From the NCBI RefSeq assembly GCF_009914755.1, contig NC_060940.1: DNA of 64,000 nucleotides. One strand, given 5' to 3'. Position 1 is the stretch's first letter, and each line of letters opens with the position of its first letter. This document shows, piece by piece, positions 1,534-1,910 of this stretch. The stretch is from the human T2T-CHM13v2.0 reference genome, Homo sapiens. The notes below the pieces were generated by a model. It was not told the origin of the DNA. It did no database searches and saw only the letters and a list, made by a program, of their open reading frames with translations. Both the position numbers and the translations under genes were made by a program.

Positions 1534-1748
1534 CTGGCACACCAAGCCTCCGCGCACCTCCGGAGGGAGGCGGCACTTGCAGGTCCGGGGGCCGCGCCGC
1601 CATGCGCAACAACGGGAAATTCCAGTGGCACCCGAGCCCCGAGCTCACCCACCCCAGGCGGCATGCTCCCCACCTCCCGCTGGCCCCAGGACTCGGAGGT
1701 GGCTCTGGTCAGGAGCAGGGGGCCCGGAGACAGGGGAGGGGAGCTCAT
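1534..1748 (-). other. Candidate upstream ORF / N-terminal extension starting at a perfect Kozak AUG and open through the splice donor
   Basis: Minus strand GCCGCCACCATGA at 1757-1745; open for 71 codons + 2 nt to the exon end (MSSPPLSPGP...); the genomic stop is only the TGA inside the intron donor. Confidence 0.45.
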
Positions 1749-1910
1749 GGTGGCGGCAGGGCTGGCGGTCGGCCCGTCCCCGGAGGGAGGTCCCCGGGAC
1801 GCGGCGGGGATTCACCCACGGGGCGCGGCGCTGGCGTCCGGGTCCCCGGCCTGCCCGCCGCCGCCGCCTCCTCCTCTGCCGCCGCCCGCCCGGAATCGCT
1901 TTATGTAAAT
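1534..1910 (-). other. ZFHX3: Leader exon 1A (canonical first exon, annotated non-coding); 5' end uncertain (~1900-2160)
   Basis: Strong minus-strand donor GCCAG|GTGAGT (plus strand actcac|ctggc at 1528-1538) at the left edge of a CpG island. Confidence 0.8.

What the first reader, a model, noticed from the sequence alone, without database searches (positions are those of the whole stretch)
1534..1757. Perfect-Kozak AUG in the 'non-coding' first exon, open through the splice donor and possibly in frame with the ZFHX3 CDS
Seen: the minus strand reads GCCGCCACCATGA, an exact match to the Kozak consensus from -9 to -1. It is the 5'-most AUG of the exon for any start site below ~1985. The frame is stop-free for 215 nt to the donor, with a second in-frame AUG (A at -3) at 1664. 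The only stop is the TGA within the intronic GTGAGT, so splicing removes it. Inference: if my recollection that exon 2 supplies 49 nt before the annotated AUG is right, 215+49 = 264 nt = 88 codons, which is in frame. That would give either an unannotated N-terminal extension or, if those 49 nt contain a stop, a strong junction-spanning repressive uORF. Either way scanning ribosomes should mostly initiate here first.
Basis: partly seen in the sequence, partly recalled or inferred. Interest (0 to 1): 0.8.

Follow-up and report, generated by a model that had tools for sequence, protein, structure and literature searches.

The report
Known upstream ORF in ZFHX3 leader
The strong upstream start codon in the first exon of ZFHX3 opens an 80-codon reading frame that stops just before the real start codon, so it is an ordinary, already catalogued upstream ORF and not a hidden extension of the protein.

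Summary
The minus strand carries GCCGCCACCATGA at 1757-1745, and this is the first AUG of annotated exon 1. The frame is open for 215 nt to the donor CAG|GTGAGT, and there is a second in-frame AUG at 1664. I fetched exon 2 from the same assembly. It supplies exactly 49 nt before the main AUG, so the upstream AUG is in frame with the CDS (264 nt). Those 49 nt contain an in-frame TGA that ends 21 nt before the main AUG. The extension model therefore fails, leaving an 80-codon uORF that spans the exon junction. This exact peptide is already listed as GENCODE Ribo-seq ORF c16riboseqorf117, a ZFHX3 uORF. [quoted passage not shown] The open frame itself is not remarkable: 2058 of 5000 shuffles stay open. 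One addition is that an intact 79-aa counterpart is deposited for a rodent, Marmota monax. The most likely role is a cis-repressive uORF in a leader with four uAUGs; repression itself was not tested. Novelty: already known. Interest is low.

The parts
1534..1910 (-). Annotated exon 1 of ZFHX3 NM_006885.4 (377 nt). All of it is 5' leader, and 73% G+C together with the 49 nt of exon 2.
   Evidence: Hub annotation. The sequence was read and the length and G+C come.
1745..1757 (-). Kozak-type context GCCGCCACC-ATG-A around uAUG1 (ATG 1748-1746, mRNA position 163).
   Evidence: 1 match in the window and 0 of 100 shuffles with a match. Also.
1534..1748 (-). Exon-1 part of the uORF: 215 nt, that is 71 codons plus the first 2 nt of an AGG codon completed by exon 2. 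The remaining parts lie outside the window, about 86 kb further along the minus strand, and so cannot be given as rows here. (1) The exon-2 part of the uORF is L006 7995-7968 = G000:C16:78777995-78777968. It is 28 nt: 1 nt, 8 codons, and the TGA stop at mRNA 403-405. (2) uAUG4 is at L006 7971-7969 (mRNA 402-404) and overlaps that stop as ATGA. (3) The main ZFHX3 AUG is at L006 7946-7944 (mRNA 427, context ACC-ATG-G).
   Evidence: The coordinates correspond to the hg38 pieces 73047752-73047966 and 72960167-72960194 of c16riboseqorf117. The main open frame of 927 codons with C2H2 fingers is.
1662..1664 (-). uAUG2 (mRNA 247, A at -3), in frame with uAUG1. It would give a 52-codon version of the same uORF.
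1601..1603 (-). uAUG3 (mRNA 308, C at -3, G at +4). After splicing it opens a 92-codon ORF in another frame that runs 160 nt past the main AUG.
   Evidence: The unspliced form appears.
1528..1533 (-). Splice donor GTGAGT of intron 1. The intron is 87,538 nt in this assembly.
   Evidence: The acceptor was read.
1812..1814 (-). In-frame TGA 21 codons upstream of uAUG1. It closes the frame on the 5' side, so no longer near-cognate-initiated version extends past it.

Best explanation
uAUG1 at 1748 starts an 80-codon upstream ORF of the ZFHX3 MANE/RefSeq-selected mRNA. It runs through the rest of exon 1, crosses the exon 1-exon 2 junction, and ends at a TGA 21 nt before the main AUG. It is the catalogued Ribo-seq ORF c16riboseqorf117. 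Shown: the anatomy, the frame, the stop and the catalogue listing. Inferred from the scanning model (recalled textbook rules of Kozak): most 43S complexes that enter at the annotated cap meet this AUG first, in a near-optimal context, and translate the uORF. Reinitiation at the main AUG should be poor, because the uORF is long and the spacer is only 21 nt. ZFHX3 synthesis from this mRNA would then rest on the minority of ribosomes that leak past uAUG1-4, or on mRNAs with other 5' ends. Termination upstream of eight exon junctions could also expose the mRNA to nonsense-mediated decay. The peptide itself is probably a by-product.
For: Sequence:
- uAUG1 is the first AUG of the exon and matches the consensus from -9 to -1.
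- Splicing gives an 80-codon ORF with its stop at mRNA 403-405, and the main AUG is at 427.
- The acceptor follows a long polypyrimidine tract. It gives the 28-nt exon-2 piece that the catalogue also lists.

Translation:
- The identical 80-aa peptide is row c16riboseqorf117 (ZFHX3, biotype uORF, 2 exons, 243 nt) in sheet 'Ribo-seq ORFs' of Table S1 of PMC10032668.
- The GENCODE 2023 paper calls ORFs named 'riboseqorf' replicated Ribo-seq ORFs (figure legend passage of PMC9825462).

Not a protein-coding extension or conserved peptide:
- PhyloCSF is -80.24 (primates) and -662.79 (mammals), with 0 MS studies.

Start and ORF structure kept:
- The label 'primatomorpha' means the ATG and at least 70% of the ORF are reconstructed back to that ancestor (methods passage).
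- An intact 79-aa counterpart exists in Marmota monax, with 62 of 80 columns identical.

Leader:
- It is heavily loaded, with 4 uAUGs, 73% G+C and MFE -226.7 kcal/mol over 426 nt.
Against: - No measurement of repression exists in anything I could read. Searches for ZFHX3 or ATBF1 with uORF terms returned no paper about this ORF.
- I saw no TSS data. If most transcripts start downstream of 1748, uAUG1 is skipped.
- I did not see which Ribo-seq studies or cell types called the ORF, nor any initiation-site profiling. Footprints could belong to the 52-codon version from uAUG2.
- The open frame is expected by chance in 41% of shuffles.
- The +4 base is A, not G.
- The Marmota record is an automatic prediction. 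Only intact ORFs get deposited, so it does not show constraint.
Confidence: 0.8

Rival explanations
1. N-terminal extension: uAUG1 starts a longer ZFHX3 protein with 88 extra residues. This could happen constitutively or by read-through of the single TGA.
For: uAUG1 is exactly in frame with the CDS (264 nt), and only one stop codon separates them.
Against: The in-frame TGA at mRNA 403-405 is present in this assembly, in hg38 (the catalogue peptide ends there), and apparently in Marmota (the protein ends at the same residues). The base after the stop is A, which is not the leaky TGA-C context (recalled rule). PhyloCSF is strongly negative. No protein of 126-2000 aa in the database carries the peptide. 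That is weak evidence, because full-length ZFHX3 exceeds that length range. An in-frame relation is expected by chance one time in three.
Confidence: 0.02
2. Functional microprotein: the 80-aa product acts in trans, and the uORF is really a small gene.
For: It is listed as a translated ORF. Its length is within the range of known microproteins. An intact counterpart exists in a rodent with 77.5% identity.
Against: PhyloCSF is negative in primates and mammals, there are 0 MS studies, and it is classed de novo and 'young'. The composition is Pro/Gly/Ala/Ser-rich, as expected from translating 72% G+C DNA. Only 1 database relative was found.
Confidence: 0.05
3. Incidental translation with negligible effect: the AUG and open frame are by-products of a GC-rich promoter-proximal exon. 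Footprints are there, but ZFHX3 output is set elsewhere (other TSSs, alternative first exons, transcription).
For: The open frame is expected by chance (2058 of 5000 shuffles). ZFHX3 has alternative first exons at 12304-12795 and 46964-47414 (hub table). Most catalogued uORFs are young and unconstrained at the peptide level (passages of PMC10032668).
Against: The context match is far beyond chance in this window. The ATG is reconstructed back to the primatomorph ancestor and is present in Marmota. Under the scanning model, a first AUG in this context is hard to bypass.
Confidence: 0.13

Closest known systems
GENCODE Ribo-seq ORF c16riboseqorf117 (ZFHX3 uORF), as listed in Table S1 of Sandmann et al. 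2023, PMC10032668
   Same: It is the same object. The 80-aa product is identical, the two exon pieces are the same (215 nt + 28 nt = 243 nt with the stop), and the gene and strand are the same.
   Different: Nothing in the sequence differs. The report adds the frame relation to the CDS, the ATGA overlap with uAUG4, the chance test for openness, and the Marmota counterpart.
Long, non-overlapping repressive uORFs of dosage-sensitive regulators, read by the scanning, leaky-scanning and reinitiation rules (general class, recalled)
   Same: The first AUG is in a strong context, the stop lies upstream of the main AUG, the spacer is short, and the leader is GC-rich and structured.
   Different: Repression has not been measured for this one. 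At 80 codons it is longer than the median catalogued young sORF (37 aa, passage).
In-frame upstream starts that give N-terminally extended proteoforms (class, recalled)
   Same: The upstream AUG is in the CDS frame.
   Different: An in-frame TGA intervenes, so the defining feature is missing.
c16riboseqorf118, the second catalogued ZFHX3 uORF
   Same: It is also a uORF of ZFHX3 classed 'primatomorpha - young'.
   Different: It lies in the alternative first exon (window 12590-12417) and is a single exon of 57 codons. It sits on GC-rich triplet repeats and its mode of evolution is 'unknown'.

Membership tests
Upstream ORF (GENCODE Ribo-seq ORF biotype 'uORF') | AUG start inside the 5' leader of an annotated coding transcript | tested here: met
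   uAUG1 is at mRNA 163 of a 426-nt leader.
Upstream ORF (GENCODE Ribo-seq ORF biotype 'uORF') | In-frame stop upstream of the main AUG (no overlap with the CDS) | tested here: met
   The TGA is at mRNA 403-405 and the main AUG at 427.
Upstream ORF (GENCODE Ribo-seq ORF biotype 'uORF') | Ribosome-footprint evidence of translation | tested here: met
   By look-up, not by re-analysis. The identical peptide is row c16riboseqorf117 in Table S1 of PMC10032668. 'riboseqorf' names are called replicated in PMC9825462. The primary catalogue paper was not held.
Repressive uORF | Loss of the uAUG raises translation of the main ORF | not testable with these tools
   This needs a reporter or an edited allele. 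No such data were found in searches.
N-terminal extension of the annotated protein | Upstream start in the CDS frame | tested here: met
   There are 264 nt between the two AUGs.
N-terminal extension of the annotated protein | No stop codon between the upstream start and the main AUG | tested here: not met
   There is an in-frame TGA at mRNA 403-405.
Conserved-peptide uORF / microprotein gene | Signature of purifying selection on the amino-acid sequence | tested here: not met
   By look-up: PhyloCSF is -80.24 (primates) and -662.79 (mammals), and the class is 'young'. I could not compute this myself because no mammalian alignments were on hand.
Conserved-peptide uORF / microprotein gene | Peptide detected by mass spectrometry | tested here: not met
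'Number of MS studies' is 0. The newer per-ORF tables of PMC13275300 could not be opened.
Termination-reinitiation at overlapping stop/start (ATGA) | Stop of the first ORF overlaps the start of the next | tested here: met
   The uORF TGA at 403-405 overlaps uAUG4 at 402-404. This is only an anatomical resemblance. No other defining feature of such systems was tested.

The most novel reading that the evidence does not exclude
The arrangement could be a functional gate rather than a coincidence. It consists of a near-optimal uAUG in the CDS frame, a single TGA seven codons before the main AUG, and that TGA overlapping a further AUG as ATGA. The arrangement appears to be kept, with a frame-preserving single-codon gap, in at least one rodent. 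Ribosomes finishing the uORF would either reinitiate at the overlapping AUG, and so be carried past the main AUG, or in rare cases read through to make an 88-residue-longer ZFHX3. Stop-loss variants at this TGA would turn a repressive uORF into a strongly initiated extended protein in a dosage-sensitive gene.
Probability: 0.05. Interest if true: 0.5.

Novelty: already known. Interest (0 to 1): 0.15.

Why it matters
ZFHX3 is a large transcription factor. The papers listed name it a tumour suppressor and endometrial cancer driver, and the gene of spinocerebellar ataxia type 4. Its dosage is therefore likely to matter. A translated uORF that starts at the first, near-optimal AUG of the main transcript is a plausible brake on its synthesis. 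The practical value lies in variant interpretation. Changes at the uAUG (1748-1746) should raise main-ORF translation. Because the uORF is in the CDS frame, loss of its single TGA would create an extended protein rather than an overlapping ORF. None of this is surprising for a regulatory gene, and the ORF is already in the reference catalogue.

Tried and rejected
- **Peptide family.** A word-indexed search of 5.8 billion proteins with the 71-aa exon-1 part gave 1 hit among 3 candidates, the Marmota prediction.
- **Longer proteins.** The 'longer' search (126-2000 aa) gave 0 hits among 706 candidates. Full-length ZFHX3 lies outside that length range, so this is weak evidence.
- **Paralogous copies in the genome.** A DNA search of the assembly with 1400-2100 found the locus itself and two short GC-rich matches of 62 and 40 nt, on C1 and C3. 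I rejected these as low-complexity similarity.
- **Openness as a coding signal.** Rejected by the shuffle test.
- **Literature on function.** ZFHX3+uORF gave 5 papers, ZFHX3+'upstream open reading' gave 12, and ZFHX3+ribosome profiling+UTR gave 3. ATBF1+uORF, the ORF id and the tryptic peptide each gave 0. I judged the hits from listings, abstracts and one set of passages. None concerns this ORF; they concern polyglycine repeat diseases or pipelines.
- **Primary catalogue paper.** Mudge et al. 2022 was not held, either by DOI or by the PMC id I recalled.
- **Newer per-ORF tables.** Its main text does not name ZFHX3.
- **Not attempted.** Structure prediction and complex prediction were not attempted, because nothing in the evidence calls for them.

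Full report
**Observation**

On the minus strand the window reads GCCGCCACCATGA at 1757-1745. It is the only match in 64 kb, and none of 100 dinucleotide shuffles contains one. The ATG is at 1748-1746. The annotated exon 1 of NM_006885.4 runs from 1910 to 1534 and holds no ATG before this one. The next upstream ATG is at 1990-1988.

The frame stays open for 215 nt to the donor CAG|GTGAGT. The first stop is the TGA formed across the donor. A second in-frame ATG with A at -3 is at 1664-1662.

- The +4 base is A rather than the consensus G.
- The open frame is not informative. The 212 nt after the ATG remain stop-free in 2058 of 5000 dinucleotide-preserving shuffles, and all three antisense frames of the same stretch are open too. 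The stretch is 72% G+C.

**Building the spliced leader**

The assembly that holds the window can be read. I fetched 60 kb around the expected place of exon 2 and looked for long open frames. One minus-strand frame of 934 codons stands out in L006.

The sequence upstream of its first ATG shows a long polypyrimidine tract and an AG acceptor at L006 7996, with the exon starting at 7995. The ATG is at 7946-7944 in the context ACC-ATG-G. The 927-residue frame from that ATG carries C2H2 zinc fingers. It also has a just-sub-threshold match to Pfam's ZFHX3-type finger, 26.7 bits against a cut-off of 27.

**Result of the splice**

From uAUG1 (mRNA 163) to the main AUG there are 264 nt, so the two are in frame. 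The frame reads AG|G, then eight codons, then TGA at mRNA 403-405, which ends 21 nt before the main AUG.

- The N-terminal extension model is therefore refuted.
- The object is an 80-codon uORF that spans the exon 1-exon 2 junction.
- On its 5' side the frame is closed by a TGA at 1814-1812, 21 codons upstream.

**The rest of the leader**

The 426-nt leader is 73% G+C, with a predicted MFE of -226.7 kcal/mol. It holds three more AUGs:

| uAUG | mRNA position | Frame and product |
|---|---|---|
| uAUG2 | 247 | In frame with uAUG1; 52 codons |
| uAUG3 | 308 | Another frame; 92 codons, running 160 nt into the CDS |
| uAUG4 | 402 | Overlaps the uORF stop as ATGA; 12 codons across the main AUG |

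**What is known**

Sheet 'Ribo-seq ORFs' of Table S1 of Sandmann et al. 2023 (PMC10032668) has a row with the identical 80-residue peptide. I searched that supplement for terms and read its first part for the header. The row reads:

- Id c16riboseqorf117, gene ZFHX3, ORF biotype uORF.
- Two pieces on the minus strand of hg38 chr16, of 28 and 215 nt, 243 nt in all.
- 'primatomorpha - young' and 'de_novo_ORF'.
- Number of MS studies 0.
- PhyloCSF primates -80.24 and PhyloCSF mammals -662.79.

The 28-nt piece confirms the acceptor I inferred.

According to passages of the same paper:

- 'Young' means that the median BLASTp E-value against aligned regions of non-primate mammals is weaker than 1e-8.
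- 'Primatomorpha' means that the ATG, and at least 70% of the ORF free of stops, are reconstructed back to the primate-colugo ancestor. This was the oldest level examined for young ORFs.

The table is the set of 7,264 ORFs of the GENCODE Phase I catalogue (passage). A figure legend of the GENCODE 2023 paper calls ORFs with 'riboseqorf' names replicated Ribo-seq ORFs (PMC9825462). That 'replicated' means found by more than one source study is my recollection of the primary paper (Mudge et al. 2022), which was not held.

Only 2 rows of the table carry ZFHX3. The other is c16riboseqorf118. I located it in the alternative first exon at window 12590-12417: 57 codons on GC-rich triplet repeats.

**Searches for functional work**

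| Search terms | Papers found |
|---|---|
| ZFHX3 + uORF | 5 |
| ZFHX3 + 'upstream open reading' | 12 |
| ZFHX3 + ribosome profiling + UTR | 3 |
| ATBF1 + uORF | 0 |
| The ORF id | 0 |

Judged from titles and abstracts, and from passages for one preprint, the hits are about polyglycine repeat diseases or annotation pipelines, not about this ORF.

The main text of the 2026 Nature paper on non-canonical ORFs (PMC13275300) does not name ZFHX3. That leaves open whether newer proteomics has seen the peptide.

**An addition from the protein databases**

The 71-residue exon-1 part finds one relative among 3 candidates: a 79-residue 'Hypothetical predicted protein' of Marmota monax. Aligned with the spliced human product, 62 of 80 columns are identical. 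Both methionines are kept, the C-terminal residues are the same, and the only gap is one codon.

So the start, frame, junction and stop exist in a rodent, which is beyond the level examined in the published classification. This is not proof of constraint, for three reasons:

- The record is an automatic prediction.
- Only intact ORFs get deposited.
- The chance of staying open is high at this G+C content.

No protein of 126-2000 residues carries the peptide (0 hits among 706 candidates). Full-length ZFHX3 models are longer than that range, so this says little.

**Mechanism**

Shown: the anatomy and the catalogue listing as a translated uORF. The rest is inferred from the scanning model (recalled rules).

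1. A first AUG in a near-optimal context captures most scanning complexes.
2. An 80-codon uORF followed by a 21-nt spacer should allow little reinitiation at the main AUG.
3. Ribosomes that leak past uAUG1 still face uAUG2-4, and two of these overlap the main start out of frame.
4. Termination in exon 2, upstream of the remaining exon junctions, may invite nonsense-mediated decay.

The expected net effect is a brake on ZFHX3 synthesis from this transcript. The effect would be bypassed by mRNAs with other first exons (12304-12795, 46964-47414 in the hub table) or by downstream start sites.

The annotated 5' end at 1910 is the A of TTCATT, which fits the human initiator consensus as I recall it. 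I had no TSS data.

**Rivals**

- Constitutive extension is excluded by the stop. Read-through is unlikely, because the stop is TGA followed by A and PhyloCSF is negative.
- A trans-acting microprotein is unlikely, because PhyloCSF is negative, there are 0 MS studies, and the composition is that of translated GC-rich DNA.
- Incidental translation without regulatory weight cannot be excluded and gets about 0.13.

**Verdict**

The object is an ordinary, already catalogued uORF. Interest is low. The residual value lies in variant interpretation for a dosage-sensitive gene, and in the in-frame single-stop and ATGA arrangement, which nobody appears to have tested.

Noticed in passing
outside the window: L006 7971-7968 (mRNA 402-405): The uORF stop TGA overlaps a further upstream AUG as ATGA. 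That AUG (G at -3) opens a 12-codon ORF that crosses the main AUG out of frame and ends 14 nt inside the CDS.
   Followed up: partly
window 1603-1601 (minus): A third upstream AUG opens, after splicing, a 92-codon out-of-frame ORF that overlaps the first 160 nt of the CDS. It is not among the 2 ZFHX3 rows of the Ribo-seq ORF table.
   Followed up: partly
window 12590-12417 (minus), in the alternative first exon 12304-12795: This is the second catalogued ZFHX3 uORF, c16riboseqorf118: 57 codons in the context CCAACC-ATG-C, encoding Gly/Ala/Ser runs. It lies on imperfect GC-rich triplet repeats at 12428-12502. A further ATG at 12417 overlaps its stop and runs off the exon.
   Followed up: partly
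P0001 (Marmota monax, 79 aa): A rodent database entry is the orthologous spliced uORF product. It is 77.5% identical, with a single-codon gap and the same end. The published age label for the human ORF stops at primates and colugos.
   Followed up: yes
window 1534-1748, plus strand; also 1453-1908 and 1602-2021 (+): All three antisense frames are stop-free over the uORF stretch, and plus-strand ATG-ORFs of 151 and 139 codons cover the exon. I read these as a G+C effect, not as genes.
   Followed up: yes
window 2817-2925: A 55-nt unit is repeated twice in tandem (94% matches), about 900 nt upstream of the annotated start of exon 1.
   Followed up: no
window coordinates against hg38: The offset between window and hg38 coordinates differs by 8 nt between exon 1 (1748 = 73047966) and the alternative exon (12590 = 73058816). 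Intron 1 is 87,538 nt here against 87,557 nt in hg38. These are small indel differences between the assemblies.
   Followed up: no
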